Notes: generated from the sequence alone by a model not told the origin. 64,000 nucleotides of DNA from Bacteroidales bacterium (GCA_016936595.1 JAFGXO010000171.1:1584-65583), one strand, 5' to 3'. Shown: positions 55,586-59,333, counted from the first letter of the stretch. Made by a program: numbers and translations.

Positions 55586-55642
55586 AAATCAAATAATGAT
55601 TTTGAAGTTTGGTTAATAAATTAACGTATTCTTTTTCGGACT

Positions 55643-55674
55643 GCAAAAGTAGGTCTTTAATTTATGTAATGCAA
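55643..55674 (-). promoter_or_regulatory. Candidate Bacteroidota sigma-A promoter for the rpsL super-operon (-33 TTTG / -7 TAnnTTTG)
   Basis: The reverse strand reads TTTG-cattacataaattaaagacc-TACTTTTG, a 20-nt spacer. The -7 box ends about 57 nt upstream of the rpsL ATG. It matches the published Bacteroides consensus form. No experimental support. Confidence 0.45.
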
Positions 55675-55820
55675 ATTTTTCTTGCTATTTTTTTTAAGTA
55701 ATGTTGAAAACTTAATTTATTTTACTGATTTTCAATCACTTAAACAAAAAAATATTTTTTTCAAAAAAAATATCCTGTCTAAACAAGCTTTTACAAATCT
55801 GCATACAATATAATATTGTT

Positions 55821-56336
55821 TTATGTGAAAATTAGTTTAAGTCTTTTTTCATCAATTTTTTCGATATTGATTTTAGTGTTGTATTTTTCGCCTATTTGAG
55901 ATAGTATATTTTTAGCTAATTCAATTAATCCACGTGAGGAGATATAGGTTAAAATTAATTCGTTTTCATTTATCCAATCAAATTCAAAAACAGGAGGTGT
56001 TGCATTTAGCACGCTTTCGGTCATAAAATCGTGAATAGAAGGAATATTTTTTATAAATTCACGGGCTGATGAAAACTGAAAAGAGGGGTAAACCTCAGAA
56101 ATATATGAAAAGATCCAATATTTTGCATATTCAGATAATAGATCATCTTTGGATATATTTAGTACTTGGGCTGAATTTTTTAAAATGCCCATAACTTTAT
56201 CATCAGAAACATCATCTCTTATTAAAAAAACATGATCTTTTTCAAAGCCTGTTCTATAAAGAATTTCTTCCCATTTTTCAACTCCATAAGTTGAGATAAT
56301 CATTCTTTCGGCGGCTTTAACAATGGTTCCTTTCAT
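55821..56336 (-). CDS. Stand-alone H-NOX (haem NO/O2-binding, HNOB) domain protein
   Basis: 171 aa. The N-terminus MKGTIVKAAERMIISTYGVEKWEEIL fits the HNOB opening. Proximal His102 is in PSIHDF (codon 56031-56033), Pro114/115 is in ATPP, and the YxSxR haem-propionate motif is Y131-I-S133-S-R135. Confidence 0.85.
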   Translation of the reverse strand: MKGTIVKAAERMIISTYGVEKWEEILYRTGFEKDHVFLIRDDVSDDKVMGILKNSAQVLNISKDDLLSEYAKYWIFSYISEVYPSFQFSSAREFIKNIPSIHDFMTESVLNATPPVFEFDWINENELILTYISSRGLIELAKNILSQIGEKYNTKINIEKIDEKRLKLIFT

Positions 56337-56339
56337 AGC

Positions 56340-59333
56340 TTAATTATTCATATTTTTTAGTTCTTGAATTTGTTTTTTAAGAATATAAATTTCTGCATCT
56401 TTTTGTTCAAGTAATACATCTAATTTTTCTAATTTTGTTCTAAATTCACGTGCTTTATGTTTATTTTTTTCTGCTTCTGCTTTGTATTGTTTATCTTTAG
56501 AAATTAATTGATTTCGCAAAGTTAAATCCTGAATTAAAGCGTATAAAAACAATTCATCTTTTTGAGTAAATGAAACCAAAGTAACATTTGCAGGGAATTC
56601 GGTTCCGTTACTTTTTTTATGCACCCATTCAAATGAATTAAAACCTTTTTCGATGGCGATATTAATCATTTCTGCAACTTTTTTCATTGAATTTTGACCA
56701 TCGGGCTGAAGTTCAGGAGATACAAATGATGGGGATATTCCAATAAATTCGTCTTTACTTTCAAACTCAAATAGTTCTAAAGTGGCATTGTTACAATCAA
56801 TAAAATTGCCGTTTTTAATTACTTGAATTGAATCAGAAGAATGCTCAAAAAGAAATTTAAATTGTTCGGCTTGATATTCGGCTCTTTTAACCAATTCTTC
56901 ATTTTTTTTGAGTTGCAAATTATTTCTTTCAAGTGATTTTTTTAAAACATCTTCAGAAGCATGAATTTTTTGGGATAATTCCTGAGCAGCTTTTTTCTCT
57001 TTAAGAGCTAAATCAGAAACAGATTGTAATTCATTTATTTTTTTAAGAATTTCTTGTTCTTTAATTTGAAGTTCATTTGTTTGAGTAAGTAATTCTTCTT
57101 GCATTTCAATTTGTTCGGTAATTTCAATAATTATGCTTATAAACTTAATTACCTCACCTGTTTTATCAGTAAAAGGCACAATATACAGCTTGAACCAGAA
57201 TATTTTATTTGTTTTAACAAATTTTAATTGATGTTGAGTTTCTTTGCCTTCAATTAAATCTTGCCATAAATTTAAATCAGCCAGCCTACTTTCTTCATTG
57301 TAATCAAATTCAGATATATGATGTCCAATAATGTCGTTGCTTTCCATCTCAAAAGTTTTATTTAATCTTTCGGGAACCGACACAATGTTACCATCAACAT
57401 CTAACTCAATAATAAATGCGGCTTTATTAATTGCAGAAAGCAGGTTATTAAGCTCAGATTCTCTCTGAGTTGCTCTTTCTTGAGTTGCCTGAAGCTCTTC
57501 AAGGTTTTGCCTTAACTCTTCTTCTTTAAGAGACCGTTGTTCGGCTTCAATTTTTGCCGAATCAAGAAGCTTAACAGTTCGTTGATTTATTTTTGCAATA
57601 GAGATAGTTGAAGCAATTGATTCGGCAATTTTTTCAACAAATACTATTTGATGTTTTTCTAACTTATTAAAAGAAGCAAGCTCGATAACACCCAAAACAT
57701 TTTCTTCAAACTTAAGCGGAACAATAAGCAAACTTCGAGGATTAGCACCACCCAAGCCTGAAGTAATACTGATATAATCTTCGGGTATTTCGGTCATGTA
57801 AATTGTTGCCTTTTCAACAGCACAAGTTCCAATTAACCCTTCTCCCATTAAAAATTCTTTTCTCTTTTTCCTTTCTTTACTATAAGCATAAGAAGCAATT
57901 AATTCAATAATTTTATCTTTATGTTCATCATTTATAATAAACATTCCTCCTTGATTTGCTTCTAAATAATTAACTAAGTCTTTAATAATAAGAGAAGCTA
58001 ATTCAGAAATATCTTTTGTTGATTGACGCAAAACATCTGAGAATTTAGCAATACCGGTATTAACCCACTCTCTAATTTTATCCTCTTCTTTTCTTTTTAC
58101 ATCTTCAATTTGGGCATTTTTCAAATTATCTCTTAAAAGAATAAGAGCATTACCCAGTTCATCTTGGTCGCTAACAGGCGAATAATTATATTTAAAATTA
58201 CCATTACCAATTTCAGAAGCAAACACGGAGGCATCTTTGAGCGATTTTACAACCAGACCAATAGTGTCGGACATTTGTACTAATTCGGAAAAATATTTAG
58301 GCTCAAAAACAAAATCGGGTATTCTACCAGTTTTAAGAGGTTCAATAAATTCTTTCAATTCCTGAATTCTACGAAATAAAATTCGAGGAAGGAAAATATT
58401 AATAAGCATAAAAAACAAGAAAAAAGAAACAGCGAGATATAAAATAAACTTTTTAGTTTCAACTCTTTTTGATGTAACATCTTGAACGATATAATTTACT
58501 GAAGTAATAAATGCGTCTTCAAAAGAATTATTTATATCACTCCATTGCATCATTAAATTGGCTTGGTCGTTCAAAAAGAGTTTTCTGTCGATATTAACTA
58601 ATTTACTGAAAGATTGTTTATAATCATTTACACTTGAAATAAATTCGCTAGAGATGTTATTTGAAACAGGAATAAATTGAGTTGTGTCGATAACACCTGT
58701 ATCTCTAACGATTTGTTGTTGGCGAACGTATGAATTAAGGTACGTAAAATAATCTAAATATTCTTCGTAGCTGTCAAAATTTGGAGAATTAAGATAAGCT
58801 AAGAAATTATTGTTCATTGAATTGAGATAGCGTAGAATTTGTGGATCATTAGTGGAGCTTATTGCAGTTTGATAAAAAGAGAAACAGTTGCCAATTATTC
58901 CGGTTTTTTTAGACCCCCGAAGGAACAGATTATGAGAGATTTGGAAAAAAACATCTTTAATTTGTTCAATATTTTCGGTGTAAAGTTGAATATCATCACC
59001 TAACTCCAATTTTTCGGTAAGCTCCAAGGCTTTTAAAGAATCCATGGTTAATTTTGCATCAGAAAGGATAATTTCTTGTCTTTTAAGGAATTTACTTTGT
59101 TCGGTTTGAAAAAAAACAGGATCGTTTTCGTAATGAATTAAGAAATCTTTTTGGGCTTGCTGTGCTTTAGTCCATTTCAAATAGGCTTTTCTAAATGAAC
59201 TTGAATAATCGATATAATTATATGTTTTTGATACGTCGTCAACGAGTCCGATGAACACTATTAGAAAAAAAACTGACGTAATAGTTAATATAAGAATAAG
59301 AAATAGACGAATACTTATTTTTTTCATGAGCAT
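56340..59333 (-). CDS. Membrane multi-sensor protein: TM, ~270-aa extracytoplasmic domain, TM, HAMP, GAF, coiled coil, PAS, coiled coil, PAS, coiled coil; no recognisable output domain
   Basis: 997 aa. TM1 is LFLILILTITSVFFLIVFIGL and TM2 is FILYLAVSFFLFFMLINIFL. The HAMP-like segment follows. The GAF region is LANQGGMFIIND...GEGLIGTCAVEKATIYM...LIVPLKFEENVLGVIELAS. Two PAS-like segments are present (FIIELDVDGNIVSV... and FKFLFEHSSDSIQVI...FEWVHKKSNGTEFPANV). I found no H-box/HATPase, GGDEF/EAL, MCP or HTH motif. Its stop lies 3 nt before the H-NOX start. Confidence 0.8.
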   Translation of the reverse strand: MLMKKISIRLFLILILTITSVFFLIVFIGLVDDVSKTYNYIDYSSSFRKAYLKWTKAQQAQKDFLIHYENDPVFFQTEQSKFLKRQEIILSDAKLTMDSLKALELTEKLELGDDIQLYTENIEQIKDVFFQISHNLFLRGSKKTGIIGNCFSFYQTAISSTNDPQILRYLNSMNNNFLAYLNSPNFDSYEEYLDYFTYLNSYVRQQQIVRDTGVIDTTQFIPVSNNISSEFISSVNDYKQSFSKLVNIDRKLFLNDQANLMMQWSDINNSFEDAFITSVNYIVQDVTSKRVETKKFILYLAVSFFLFFMLINIFLPRILFRRIQELKEFIEPLKTGRIPDFVFEPKYFSELVQMSDTIGLVVKSLKDASVFASEIGNGNFKYNYSPVSDQDELGNALILLRDNLKNAQIEDVKRKEEDKIREWVNTGIAKFSDVLRQSTKDISELASLIIKDLVNYLEANQGGMFIINDEHKDKIIELIASYAYSKERKKRKEFLMGEGLIGTCAVEKATIYMTEIPEDYISITSGLGGANPRSLLIVPLKFEENVLGVIELASFNKLEKHQIVFVEKIAESIASTISIAKINQRTVKLLDSAKIEAEQRSLKEEELRQNLEELQATQERATQRESELNNLLSAINKAAFIIELDVDGNIVSVPERLNKTFEMESNDIIGHHISEFDYNEESRLADLNLWQDLIEGKETQHQLKFVKTNKIFWFKLYIVPFTDKTGEVIKFISIIIEITEQIEMQEELLTQTNELQIKEQEILKKINELQSVSDLALKEKKAAQELSQKIHASEDVLKKSLERNNLQLKKNEELVKRAEYQAEQFKFLFEHSSDSIQVIKNGNFIDCNNATLELFEFESKDEFIGISPSFVSPELQPDGQNSMKKVAEMINIAIEKGFNSFEWVHKKSNGTEFPANVTLVSFTQKDELFLYALIQDLTLRNQLISKDKQYKAEAEKNKHKAREFRTKLEKLDVLLEQKDAEIYILKKQIQELKNMNN

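What the first reader, a model, noticed from the sequence alone, without database searches (positions are those of the whole stretch)
55821..59333. H-NOX haem sensor paired with an output-less HAMP-GAF-PAS-PAS membrane protein
The 171-aa ORF carries every haem-binding H-NOX signature at canonical spacing: His102, Pro114/115 and Y131-x-S133-x-R135. It starts 3 nt after the stop of a 997-aa protein, so the two are almost certainly co-transcribed and probably translationally coupled. In characterised bacterial systems the H-NOX partner is a histidine kinase, a GGDEF/EAL enzyme, or an MCP (sometimes fused). Here the partner has only input and transducer modules: a large extracytoplasmic domain, HAMP, GAF, two PAS domains and three long coiled coils. 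It ends in a ~60-aa coiled coil with no kinase H-box, ATPase, cyclase, MCP or DNA-binding motif that I can see. That points to one of two things: an undescribed H-NOX effector class (a scaffold or partner-switching transducer that combines an extracellular cue with a cytoplasmic gas signal), or a split system whose catalytic partner is encoded elsewhere. The gene order is also inverted relative to the usual H-NOX-first arrangement.
Basis: partly seen in the sequence, partly recalled or inferred. Interest (0 to 1): 0.75.

Follow-up and report, generated by a model that had tools for sequence, protein, structure and literature searches.

The report
NO-sensor H-NOX paired with output-less chemoreceptor-like protein
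A small haem gas-sensor gene (H-NOX) sits directly behind, and has co-evolved with, a large membrane receptor that has only sensing and relay modules and no enzyme. This is an H-NOX partner type I found in no paper, and the receptor's relatives suggest it signals through a phosphatase-based partner-switch encoded elsewhere.

Summary
The 171-aa ORF is a full-length H-NOX (Pfam HNOB 120.8 bits; His102, Pro114/115, Y131-S133-R135). It starts 3 nt after the stop of a 997-aa membrane protein.

That protein consists of an HBM-like periplasmic bundle, TM/HAMP-like region, GAF, PAS, PAS and a 59-residue terminal helix. Pfam, NCBIfam, PDB sequence search, an AlphaFold model and Foldseek find no catalytic or DNA-binding domain, and no unassigned segment is long enough to hide one.

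The pair recurs in 6 of 8 orthologous loci read directly (receptor identity down to about 52%). H-NOX is absent from 80 loci of the wider receptor family.

New findings:
- The C-terminal tail, with the motif [AS]R.[FY]R.K[LIV]EK.D, occurs only in H-NOX-linked receptors. It is deleted or decayed where H-NOX was lost, so it is a candidate docking helix.
- Related H-NOX domains are fused to the C-terminus of MCPs, in the same receptor-then-H-NOX order.
- The closest output-bearing paralogue of the receptor is a SiaA-like GAF-PAS-PAS-PP2C phosphatase. It lies in a conserved cluster: CheR, receptor, CheR, CheB, GAF, PP2C, SiaB-like, SiaC.

Best reading: H-NOX is an NO-sensing accessory subunit of a split, partner-switch-coupled receptor. 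The output step is inferred, not shown.

The parts
56340..59333 (-). Receptor gene, 997 aa (GenBank start is 2 codons later, 995 aa): an output-less HBM-like/TM/HAMP-like/GAF/PAS/PAS/coiled-coil membrane protein
   Evidence: ORF; domains; model; 100% identical to P0001 = MBN2664190.1
58452..59243 (-). Periplasmic all-helical sensor domain (residues about 31-294), helical-bimodular (HBM)-like, flanked by TM1 (59244-59312) and TM2 (58377-58451)
   Evidence: Hydropathy; AF2 domain model pLDDT 87.9, pTM 0.80; Foldseek best hits are the McpS ligand-binding domain 2yfa/2yfb (prob 1.00, TM 0.51-0.59), then TorS and PilJ sensor domains; no Pfam hit
58209..58376 (-). HAMP-like helix-loop-helix (residues about 320-375)
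   Evidence: AF2 helices 259-333 and 348-375 with a connector; the homologous segment hits PF00672 in relatives; Pfam HAMP is NOT detected on this sequence itself
57603..58163 (-). Family-specific pre-GAF helices plus GAF domain (residues about 391-577). This module is shared with the SiaA-like PP2C phosphatase and with a small membrane GAF protein
   Evidence: Pfam GAF_2 E 3.8e-14; 42% identity over 251 aa to residues 106-346 of the L059 GAF-PAS-PAS-SpoIIE protein; alignment
57423..57602 (-). GAF-to-PAS1 signalling helix with the near-invariant motif AEQRSLKEEELRQNLEELQATQERA
   Evidence: Near-identical in proteins that are only about 40% identical overall; also present in the Tenuifilum receptor and PP2C phosphatase
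57114..57422 (-). PAS1 (residues about 638-740)
   Evidence: Pfam PAS_9 and TIGR00229; AF2
56526..56846 (-). PAS2 (residues about 830-936), preceded by a 92-residue helix (56847-57113)
   Evidence: Pfam PAS_9 E 3.7e-10 on the isolated segment; AF2
56343..56525 (-). C-terminal 59-residue helix (the 'tail'), found only in H-NOX-linked receptors; candidate H-NOX docking site
   Evidence: AF2 helix 937-995; detectable by phmmer only in P0001-6, P0008-12 and P0014; among H-NOX+ receptors the tail is more conserved than the PAS core (67% vs 53%); no HisKA/HNOBA signal
56418..56453 (-). Tail motif AREFRTKLEKLD (residues 961-972), consensus [AS]R.[FY]R.K[LIV]EK.D
   Evidence: Present in all 10 H-NOX-associated receptors; decayed in P0005 and P0011 and internally deleted in P0007, all of which lost H-NOX
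55821..56336 (-). H-NOX gene, 171 aa, stand-alone, with no distal Tyr and no Cys
   Evidence: Pfam HNOB 120.8 bits; best PDB relatives are Nostoc Alr2278 H-NOX and sGC beta1; = MBN2664189.1
55932..56033 (-). Haem-binding core: His102 codon (56031-56033) through Y131-x-S133-x-R135 (55932-55946), including Pro114/115
   Evidence: Positions; invariant in the clade alignment; conserved in 142-149 of 151 sequences of the wider clade

Best explanation
The two genes encode a two-subunit sensor. The 171-aa protein is a haem-binding H-NOX of the NO/CO-selective type, because it has no distal-pocket tyrosine. The 997-aa protein is a dimeric, chemoreceptor-like transducer. It reads a periplasmic ligand through an HBM-like helical bundle and passes the signal along HAMP-like, GAF, PAS and PAS modules joined by long signalling helices. 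H-NOX most likely docks on the clade-specific C-terminal helix after PAS2 (motif [AS]R.[FY]R.K[LIV]EK.D). The gas-bound state of the haem would then bias the conformation of the same helical relay. This resembles H-NOX acting on the PAS and coiled-coil modules in soluble guanylate cyclase, or a C-terminally fused H-NOX acting on an MCP. The receptor has no enzymatic output of its own. By homology, it is a phosphatase-less paralogue of a membrane-anchored SiaA-like GAF-PAS-PAS-PP2C phosphatase. I propose that it signals by hetero-association, through the shared GAF/linker module, with such a phosphatase encoded elsewhere. That phosphatase would set the phosphorylation state of a SiaC-like protein against a SiaB-like kinase (a partner switch). 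Shown: domain content, haem-ligating residues, absence of an output domain, conserved pairing, tail/H-NOX co-distribution, and the existence and composition of the PP2C/SiaB/SiaC/CheR/CheB cluster around paralogous receptors. Inferred: haem and NO binding; physical docking on the tail (about 0.55); coupling to a PP2C partner switch in this organism (about 0.3).
For: H-NOX identity and haem residues. NO-type pocket: the residue equivalent to Tt Tyr140 / Ns Met144 is Leu140 (alignment), and it is L/F/I/V in about 90% of the clade. No output domain. Pairing: read directly in the window, L003/L008, L006, L009, L094 and L095, with gaps of 3, -1, -1, 11, 25 and 439 nt; three more pairs are inferred from shared contig lengths. 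Specificity: no H-NOX in 80 loci of the wider family. Tail link: the tail is found only in H-NOX-linked receptors. All H-NOX-less relatives either end right after PAS2, have the motif internally deleted (P0007), or have it decayed (P0005, P0011). Among H-NOX+ receptors the tail is more conserved than the PAS core, and less conserved than the core in P0005. A rough NJ tree puts the tail+/H-NOX+ state in three subclades, implying several independent losses. Fusion evidence: TM-HAMP-MCPsignal-H-NOX (P0324) and TM-MCPsignal-H-NOX (P0269) score about 70 bits to this H-NOX, against 56 bits for Nostoc and 39 bits for Caldanaerobacter. Output: the conserved cluster CheR, receptor, CheR, CheB, GAF, GAF-PAS-PAS-SpoIIE, DUF6272, SiaC is found in 7-9 metagenome loci and in the Tenuifilum thalassicum genome. 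DUF6272 and SiaC match the two chains of PDB 6KKO. The PP2C protein shares the receptor's HAMP-like/GAF/linker module at 42% identity. SiaABC is a known PP2C/kinase/phosphoprotein switch (PMC7647112).
Against: All H-NOX+ loci are one orthologous locus (Na/Ala symporter | receptor | H-NOX | rpsL) in one small clade of uncultured Bacteroidales. Vertical inheritance therefore explains part of the conservation, and the effective number of independent observations is small. H-NOX was lost at least five times while the receptor stayed, so it is dispensable for the receptor. Where the protein ends right after PAS2 (P0013, P0015, P0017, P0021), co-loss of tail and H-NOX could be a single deletion spanning the gene's 3' end and hnoX, rather than evidence of function. 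The tail motif was defined post hoc from the H-NOX+ set. P0011 shows only mild tail divergence. The L095 pair is 439 nt apart. The 64-kb window holds no PP2C, SiaB, SiaC, CheR or CheB gene, and I could not search the rest of the genome; ten PP2C homologues with accessions did not fall in this MAG's accession block. No physical interaction was modelled or measured. The tree is a quick NJ tree without support values.
Confidence: 0.5

Rival explanations
1. Co-transcribed but functionally independent. The H-NOX regulates an unlinked histidine kinase or GGDEF/EAL enzyme, as in characterised systems. Its position behind the receptor gene is a historical insertion next to the rpsL operon, maintained by descent.
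For: All pairs lie in one syntenic locus of one clade. H-NOX was lost repeatedly without loss of the receptor. One pair is separated by 439 nt. The more distant H-NOX genes sit in unrelated contexts.
Against: The gaps are 3, -1, -1, 11 and 25 nt in five of six pairs. A receptor tail and motif exist only where H-NOX exists and decay or disappear when it is lost. Related H-NOX domains are physically fused to the C-terminal end of membrane receptors. No kinase or cyclase gene lies within the flanks of any H-NOX+ locus.
Confidence: 0.15
2. H-NOX does regulate the receptor, but the receptor's output is not a PP2C partner switch. It could heterodimerise through its PAS/coiled-coil modules with an orphan PAS histidine kinase or another effector, or it could act as a dominant-negative or decoy subunit.
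For: The window and flanks of all H-NOX+ loci lack PP2C/SiaB/SiaC genes. Distant homologues of the HAMP-GAF module do carry HisKA/HATPase/REC (P0063-P0072). In L001 the receptor is followed by a TPR histidine kinase and a LuxR-type regulator. Most of the 80 family loci have no conserved output neighbour.
Against: The nearest output-bearing paralogue by far is the PP2C protein (42% identity over the module, against at most 30% for kinases). The only recurrent signalling neighbourhood of the family is the CheR/CheB-GAF-PP2C-SiaB-SiaC cluster. The L001 kinase neighbourhood is a rearrangement found in a lineage that lost H-NOX.
Confidence: 0.2
3. The receptor is a degenerate or truncated enzyme (for example a histidine kinase that lost its catalytic half), or the gene pair is an assembly or annotation artefact.
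For: The two ORFs are in the same frame and separated by a single TAA. The tail sequence AREFRTKL superficially resembles an H-box (ELRTPL; my own recollection of the HisKA consensus).
Against: Output-less termination is the norm across at least 434 relatives, which carry 0, 1 or 2 PAS after GAF. Orthologues from independent assemblies have the same length and ends. The His in the tail is not conserved. There is no HisKA signal even on the isolated tail. In other genomes the two ORFs overlap by 1 nt in different frames.
Confidence: 0.02

Closest known systems
Stand-alone H-NOX with an operon-encoded histidine kinase (HnoK/HahK/HqsK; Shewanella, Vibrio, Caulobacter) or a GGDEF/EAL enzyme (HaCE; Shewanella woodyi, Legionella)
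   Same: A small stand-alone H-NOX with His/YxSxR and a hydrophobic distal pocket, encoded next to, and presumably regulating by direct binding, a signalling protein (partner classes as listed in PMC8738867 and PMC12329717).
   Different: The partner here has no HisKA/HATPase, GGDEF or EAL domain. It is a membrane receptor with its own periplasmic sensor. The gene order is receptor first. The host is an uncultured Bacteroidales lineage recovered from anoxic, sulfidic sites.
H-NOX fused to methyl-accepting chemotaxis proteins (Caldanaerobacter/Thermoanaerobacter Tt H-NOX, PDB 1U4H; and the C-terminal MCP-H-NOX fusions P0269/P0324 found here)
   Same: H-NOX attached to a membrane, chemoreceptor-type, coiled-coil transducer. 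In P0269/P0324 the H-NOX follows the receptor's C-terminal helix, mirroring the gene order here. The periplasmic domain here is of chemoreceptor type (McpS HBM-like).
   Different: Here there are two polypeptides. The MCP signalling domain is replaced by GAF-PAS-PAS. Tt H-NOX is N-terminal and has the O2-binding Tyr140, whereas this one has Leu140.
Soluble guanylate cyclase (beta1 H-NOX - PAS - coiled coil - cyclase; PDB 6JT0)
   Same: An H-NOX without a distal Tyr working with a PAS domain and a coiled coil. sGC beta1 is among the best sequence matches of this H-NOX.
   Different: No cyclase domain. There is no Pfam HNOBA signal in PAS2 plus tail. H-NOX is a separate protein.
SiaABCD partner-switch of Pseudomonas aeruginosa (PP2C SiaA, kinase SiaB, phosphoprotein SiaC; PDB 6KKO; PMC7647112)
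   Same: Paralogous receptors sit in clusters with a membrane-anchored HAMP-like PP2C phosphatase, a SiaB homologue (DUF6272, E 2e-14 to 6KKO_A) and a SiaC homologue (E 1e-13 to 6KKO_C).
   Different: No SiaD diguanylate cyclase was seen. The cluster adds two CheR, one CheB, an output-less receptor and a small GAF protein. None of these genes is in the window, so membership of the window's pair in such a pathway is inferred.
AppA-PpsR (PDB 4HH3)
   Same: A small cofactor-binding sensor protein that controls a multi-PAS, helix-linked partner by binding it, with no enzyme involved. PpsR is among the top structural matches of the receptor.
   Different: PpsR ends in a DNA-binding HTH. The receptor here is membrane-bound and has no HTH. 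The resemblance is one of logic only, not homology of the sensor.

Membership tests
H-NOX (Pfam HNOB, PF07700) | Full-length match to the family profile above the curated threshold | tested here: met
   120.8 bits against a cut-off of 25.5, covering model positions 1-162 of 163
H-NOX (Pfam HNOB, PF07700) | Proximal haem ligand His, the Y-x-S-x-R propionate-binding motif and the conserved Pro | tested here: met
   H102, Y131/S133/R135 and P114/P115; aligned to Nostoc H105 and Y134/S136/R138; invariant in the clade
H-NOX (Pfam HNOB, PF07700) | Binds haem and a diatomic gas (spectroscopy) | not testable with these tools
   Requires purified protein
O2-binding H-NOX subclass (Tt H-NOX type) | Distal-pocket Tyr (Tt Tyr140) H-bond network | tested here: not met
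   The equivalent residue is Leu140, and the Trp9 and Asn74 equivalents are Ala9 and Trp74. The Tt numbering comes from my own knowledge; the register was checked against the Nostoc alignment and clade counts
H-NOX / histidine-kinase two-component pair (HnoK type) | Adjacent partner carries HisKA (or HWE/HisKA_2) plus HATPase_c | tested here: not met
   No such hit at E<=1 on the whole protein or at E<=10 on the tail; no kinase fold in the model or in Foldseek
H-NOX / c-di-GMP enzyme pair (HaCE type) | Adjacent partner carries GGDEF and/or EAL | tested here: not met
   No hits; no room in the model
Methyl-accepting chemotaxis protein | MCPsignal (PF00015) cytoplasmic hairpin | tested here: not met
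   Absent. The periplasmic domain is nevertheless MCP-like (McpS HBM)
HAMP domain | Match to PF00672 | tested here: inconclusive
   No hit on this protein or on its isolated segment. The homologous segment in relatives hits HAMP, and the model shows helix-connector-helix after TM2
sGC-type H-NOX-associated module (HNOBA, PF07701) | PAS-like plus coiled-coil region matching HNOBA | tested here: not met
   PAS2 plus tail scanned alone at E<=10 gives only generic PAS families
SiaABC-type partner switch | PP2C phosphatase, SiaB-like kinase and SiaC-like phosphoprotein encoded with the receptor | tested here: not met
   None in the 64-kb window or in the flanks of H-NOX+ loci. All are present around paralogous receptors. 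The rest of this genome could not be searched
Output-less HAMP-GAF-(PAS)n receptor family (unnamed; defined here) | TM sensor, HAMP-like helix, family-specific pre-GAF helix plus GAF, conserved linker EEELRQNLEELQATQE, 0-2 PAS, then stop | tested here: met
   Alignment A2; architecture census of 85 loci; linker conservation

The most novel reading that the evidence does not exclude
Bacteroidales possess a CheA/CheW-independent, chemoreceptor-like signalling system. Its many membrane receptors (HBM/Cache sensor, HAMP, GAF, conserved Glu-rich linker, PAS) lack an MCP tip and any enzyme. They would couple through their shared GAF/linker module to a membrane-anchored SiaA-like PP2C phosphatase that drives a SiaB/SiaC partner switch, with CheR/CheB providing methylation-based adaptation on non-MCP substrates. 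In one receptor lineage, which includes the window's pair, a dedicated C-terminal docking helix recruits a stand-alone H-NOX. That adds a cytoplasmic NO input to a periplasmic ligand input, and it would be the first H-NOX effector that is a non-enzymatic transducer.
Probability: 0.25. Interest if true: 0.85.

Novelty: new variant of a known kind. Interest (0 to 1): 0.62.

Why it matters
Bacterial H-NOX signalling is currently described through three partner types: histidine kinases, c-di-GMP enzymes and fused MCPs (PMC8738867, PMC12329717). This pair would add a fourth type, an enzyme-less membrane transducer that integrates an extracellular ligand with a cytoplasmic gas signal. It also comes with a concrete, mutable candidate interface, a 12-residue motif in a terminal helix. 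In addition, it draws attention to a large, unstudied receptor family in Bacteroidales. That family's only recurrent genomic partners are CheR/CheB and a SiaABC-like PP2C partner switch, and the cluster is present in a cultured organism (Tenuifilum thalassicum). That makes two questions experimentally accessible: how output-less receptors signal, and what CheR/CheB do in bacteria where no CheA lies nearby. If instead the H-NOX acts on an unlinked enzyme, the finding reduces to a clade-specific gene adjacency of modest interest.

Tried and rejected
1. Cryptic output domain: rejected after Pfam, NCBIfam, PDB phmmer, a full-length AF2 model and Foldseek.

2. Degenerate H-box in the tail (AREFRTKL against ELRTPL): rejected. 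The nearby His is not conserved, and there is no HisKA signal.

3. LOV photoreceptor reading of PAS1, suggested by weak LOV hits: rejected by eye, because the flavin-binding NCRFL-type motif is absent from the sequence.

4. H-NOX remnants in the intergenic gaps of H-NOX-less loci: none found.

5. Genome-wide census from the H-NOX side: the genome-contig scan used a narrow peptide pattern and returned only 6 loci. Four were distant H-NOX genes in unrelated contexts, so this was of little use.

6. Locating the PP2C phosphatase in the window's own MAG through GenBank accession blocks: ten accessions were checked and none was in the MBN2664xxx or MBN2890xxx blocks. Inconclusive.

7. Promoter and terminator scans: at or below shuffle expectation. 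The Bacteroidetes TAnnTTTG motif is not enriched (123 found against 117 expected), so nothing can be said about internal promoters.

8. Literature: no paper in the held library links H-NOX with Bacteroidetes operons, with partner switching, or with DUF6272, or links CheR/CheB with SpoIIE/GAF.

9. Modelling the H-NOX/receptor complex: not attempted.

10. The idea that the conserved linker (LEELQAT) is a CheR methylation site resembling the MCP motif: this rests only on my memory of the Tsr/Tar consensus and fits it only partly. It is kept as speculation.

Full report
**Observation.** A 997-aa ORF lies at 56340..59333 (-) and a 171-aa ORF at 55821..56336 (-). They are separated by TAA-GCT-ATG, a 3-nt gap, and happen to be in the same reading frame.

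The small protein is a full-length H-NOX. Pfam HNOB gives 120.8 bits against a cut-off of 25.5, E 6.9e-35. His102, Pro114/115 and Tyr131-x-Ser133-x-Arg135 sit at the stated positions. Its best solved relatives are the NO/CO-type Nostoc Alr2278 H-NOX and sGC beta1, and His102 and YxSxR align to the Nostoc haem ligands. These residues are invariant in the close clade and conserved in 142-149 of 151 sequences of the wider clade.

The residue that aligns with Nostoc Met144 is Leu140. By my knowledge of the family, that position is also the O2-stabilising Tyr140 of Tt H-NOX. The protein therefore belongs to the O2-excluding, NO/CO-sensing type. It contains no cysteine, so the Zn/Cys redox site mentioned in PMC12329717 is absent.

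**Anatomy of the large protein.** Hydropathy gives two TM helices, at about 8-30 and 295-319. Pfam and NCBIfam find GAF (440-577) and two PAS domains (639-740 and about 823-940), and nothing else at E<=1. Scanning the putative HAMP, the linkers and the PAS2-plus-tail segment in isolation at E<=10 adds no HAMP, HisKA, HNOBA or other signalling family.

A full-length AlphaFold2 model built on 48 family sequences has mean pLDDT 80.5. It shows:
- an all-helical periplasmic domain;
- TM2 running into a helix-connector-helix;
- two short helices, then GAF;
- a 79-residue helix;
- PAS1;
- a 92-residue helix;
- PAS2;
- a single 59-residue terminal helix.

Every cytoplasmic stretch without a domain assignment is one helix, so there is no room for a catalytic or DNA-binding domain. 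Foldseek of this model against the PDB returns only tandem-PAS and GAF sensor modules (MmoS, PpsR, FixL, the DosP PAS region, LOV-PAS, phytochromes). PDB sequence search finds only weak LOV-type PAS matches.

The periplasmic domain modelled alone (pLDDT 87.9, pTM 0.80) matches best the helical-bimodular ligand-binding domain of the chemoreceptor McpS (prob 1.00, TM 0.51-0.59). The TorS and PilJ sensor domains follow. It rests on the model and on relatives whose homologous segment does hit PF00672.

**Is the output-less state real?** Yes, and it is the rule for the family. The homologue search returned 62 relatives, down to about 33% identity, from Bacteroidales and Bacteroidota metagenome assemblies. 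They carry varied sensor domains (dCache, sCache, 4HB) but no catalytic domain on record. Kinase domains appear only in hits of 30% identity or less.

A metagenome scan found at least 434 relatives. In the 80 loci fetched, the proteins end about 25, 125 or 300 residues after the GAF core, that is, after 0, 1 or 2 PAS domains. The GAF-to-PAS linker AEQRSLKEEELRQNLEELQATQERA is almost invariant, even between proteins that are 40% identical overall.

**Is the pairing conserved?** I read ten further loci directly.

| Locus (receptor) | Receptor identity to window | H-NOX present | Spacing / context |
|---|---|---|---|
| window | 100% | yes | 3-nt gap |
| L003/L008 (P0009) | 56% | yes | 1-nt overlap |
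| L006 (P0014, 1227 aa, extra PAS and sCache) | 52% | yes | 1-nt overlap |
| L009 (Acetofilamentum sp. MAG, = P0008) | 57% | yes | 11-nt gap |
| L094 (P0006) | 64% | yes | 25-nt gap |
| L095 (P0010) | 55% | yes | 439-nt gap |
| L096 (P0013) | - | no | still followed by rpsL |
| L099 (P0017) | - | no | still followed by rpsL |
| L100 (P0007) | - | no | still followed by rpsL |
| L001 (P0005) | - | no | downstream region rearranged |
| L098 (P0011) | - | no | downstream region rearranged |
| L097 (P0018) | - | no | paralogue at another locus |
| L005 (P0024) | - | no | paralogue at another locus |

The H-NOX+ loci all share the block Na/Ala symporter (-) | receptor | H-NOX | rpsL-rpsG-fusA. The H-NOX-less loci come, and tblastn finds no H-NOX remnant in any of the gaps. 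None of the 80 wider-family loci contains an H-NOX.

The pairing is therefore real and tight but clade-restricted, and H-NOX is dispensable for the receptor.

**The tail.** The 59-residue C-terminal helix is detectable only in P0001-6, P0008-12 and P0014. That is the H-NOX-linked set plus P0005 and P0011.

- All ten H-NOX-associated receptors carry the motif [AS]R.[FY]R.K[LIV]EK.D (AREFRTKLEKLD in the window, residues 961-972).
- P0005 (VRKYKEEIDKLY) and P0011 (VRELRELLENMD), which lost H-NOX at a rearrangement breakpoint, have lost the motif.
- P0007, which lost H-NOX but still abuts rpsL, has an internal deletion that removes the motif and keeps the last roughly 25 residues.
- P0013, P0015, P0021 and the out-paralogues stop right after the last PAS2 strand.

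Among H-NOX+ receptors the tail is more conserved than the PAS1-PAS2 core (67% against 53% mean pairwise identity). In P0005 the relation is reversed (43% against 53%). P0011 is only mildly affected.

A quick NJ tree places the tail+/H-NOX+ state in three subclades of the rpsL-locus clade. This implies an ancestral tail+/H-NOX+ state and several independent losses.

Caveats apply. I defined the motif after seeing the sequences. The tree has no support values. For the proteins that end at PAS2, a single deletion spanning the gene's 3' end and hnoX would give the same pattern with no functional link. P0007, P0005 and P0011 are not explained that way.

**Fusion evidence.** An exhaustive profile search of 1.84 billion representatives found 2,468 H-NOX relatives at E<=0.001 and 124 at E<=1e-30, nearly all stand-alone proteins of about 173 aa. 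Only three representative clusters belong to the narrow clade.

Two of the listed proteins carry the H-NOX at the C-terminus of a membrane chemoreceptor: P0324 is TM-HAMP-MCPsignal-H-NOX and P0269 is TM-MCPsignal-H-NOX. Their H-NOX domains score about 70 bits to the window's H-NOX, more than Nostoc (56) or Caldanaerobacter (39). The order 'membrane coiled-coil receptor, then H-NOX' therefore also exists as a single polypeptide. That supports a physical association at the receptor's C-terminal end, and it makes the 'inverted' gene order unsurprising.

**Where could the output be?** I clustered the neighbours of the 80 family loci. Twenty-two loci hold tandem receptor paralogues. Nine hold a conserved cluster, which Pfam resolves as follows:
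- CheR;
- receptor (790-900 aa; HAMP-GAF-PAS-PAS, no output);
- CheR;
- CheB methylesterase without a receiver domain;
- a roughly 260-aa GAF protein;
- an 870-aa GAF-PAS-PAS-SpoIIE (PP2C) protein;
- DUF6272;
- a SiaC-family protein;
- a TerB-ABC transporter.

The same cluster is present in the complete genome of the isolate Tenuifilum thalassicum (CP041345.1, 296058-318670). No CheA or CheW is called within 10 kb on either side there.

DUF6272 matches chain A of PDB 6KKO (E 2e-14, full length) and the SiaC-family protein matches chain C (E 1e-13). To my knowledge 6KKO is the P. aeruginosa SiaB-SiaC kinase-substrate complex, and SiaABC is described as a PP2C/kinase/phosphoprotein switch in PMC7647112.

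The PP2C protein is highly conserved and widespread in Bacteroidales: 2,713 hits at E<=1e-30, of which the best 120 listed are 65-97% identical. It has N-terminal hydrophobic segments, a HAMP-like helix, the family GAF and the same linker motif (EEELRQNAEEM..TQEE). It is 42% identical to the window receptor over 251 residues.

The window receptor is thus, in effect, this phosphatase with a periplasmic sensor added and the PP2C domain removed. That makes hetero-association through the shared module the most economical way for an output-less receptor to signal. It also fits a picture of many scattered receptors feeding one output cluster, as MCPs do.

However, the window contains none of these genes, and neither do the flanks of the other H-NOX+ loci. 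I could not search the rest of the genome, and an attempt through accession blocks was inconclusive. This step is inference.

**Comparison with what is known.** Reviews list histidine kinases, GGDEF/EAL enzymes and fused MCPs as bacterial H-NOX partners. They also describe a dichotomy: stand-alone NO sensors in facultative anaerobes, and Tyr-containing, MCP-fused O2 sensors in obligate anaerobes (PMC8738867; PMC12329717). The present H-NOX is stand-alone and lacks the Tyr. Its lineage is recovered from anoxic, sulfidic sites, judging by isolate names and by PFOR-type genes nearby.

Its partner fails the defining tests for all three partner classes. Full-text searches found nothing linking H-NOX to Bacteroidetes operons or partner switching, and nothing on DUF6272 or on a CheR/CheB-PP2C combination. 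The library is incomplete, so this is absence of evidence only. GenBank's automatic annotation already names both proteins by domain.

I rate it a new variant of a known kind: H-NOX signalling through a non-enzymatic, chemoreceptor-like transducer. The candidate docking helix is supported by co-distribution, and the partner-switch output is inferred from paralogues. My confidence is about 0.75 that the two proteins form a functional pair, 0.55 that the tail is the interface, and 0.3 that the output is a SiaA-like PP2C switch.

Interest is 0.62. The clade is small and uncultured and nothing has been shown biochemically. On the other hand, the case is specific and testable, and it points to a much larger undescribed receptor system.

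Noticed in passing
L101:4571-16758 (Tenuifilum thalassicum CP041345.1); also L033, L039, L042, L052, L055, L059, L081, with a variant in L074: A conserved cluster: CheR, output-less HAMP-GAF-PAS-PAS receptor, CheR, CheB (no receiver domain), small membrane GAF protein, GAF-PAS-PAS-PP2C, DUF6272 (SiaB-like), SiaC, TerB-ABC transporter. No CheA or CheW is called within 10 kb. This looks like a chemotaxis-style methylation module attached to a partner switch. I found no description of it in the held literature.
   Followed up: partly
window 57423-57602 (receptor residues 578-637) and the same segment in all family members: The GAF-to-PAS1 linker AEQRSLKEEELRQNLEELQATQERA is nearly invariant across proteins that are only about 40% identical, and it recurs in the PP2C phosphatase. 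Its Glu-Glu-x-x-Ala-Thr pattern loosely recalls MCP methylation sites (from memory), which is intriguing given the CheR/CheB neighbours. This is untested.
   Followed up: partly
window 56334-56345: The receptor and H-NOX ORFs are in the same frame, separated by one TAA and one Ala codon. Stop-codon read-through would therefore produce a receptor-H-NOX fusion like the natural MCP-H-NOX fusions. In L003 and L006 the genes instead overlap by 1 nt in different frames, so the shared frame is probably coincidental.
   Followed up: partly
P0269 (605 aa) and P0324 (660 aa), from the representative search: These are MCPs with an H-NOX domain at the C-terminus (TM-[HAMP]-MCPsignal-H-NOX). This is the opposite orientation to the textbook N-terminal Tt H-NOX-MCP. 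Their genomic origin is unknown.
   Followed up: partly
L099:4001-9883: In this contig the receptor stops inside PAS2 and fusA is split into two ORFs (296 + 260 aa). This suggests frameshift errors or pseudogenisation, so its 'tail-less' state should be weighted lightly.
   Followed up: no
L001:9587-12129: In the lineage of P0005, where H-NOX is lost, the receptor is followed after 600 nt of non-coding DNA by a TPR-HisKA-HATPase kinase and a LuxR-type response regulator instead of rpsL.
   Followed up: no
L095:8085-8523: A 439-nt spacer lies between the receptor and H-NOX in an otherwise syntenic locus, unlike the spacings of -1 to 25 nt elsewhere. H-NOX may have its own promoter there.
   Followed up: no
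L014, L021, L022 and about 19 other family loci; L050 and L072 lie on one 175-kb contig: Receptor paralogues with different sensor domains (dCache_1, dCache_2/sCache_2) occur in tandem and several times per genome, like MCP repertoires.
   Followed up: partly
window 55586-55820: An AT-rich palindrome (…ATATTTTTTTTGAAAAAAATAT…) follows the H-NOX stop, and a TACTTTTG motif (55644-55651, - strand) lies 59 nt upstream of rpsL. These may be an operon boundary and the rpsL promoter, but the motif is not enriched in the window.
   Followed up: partly
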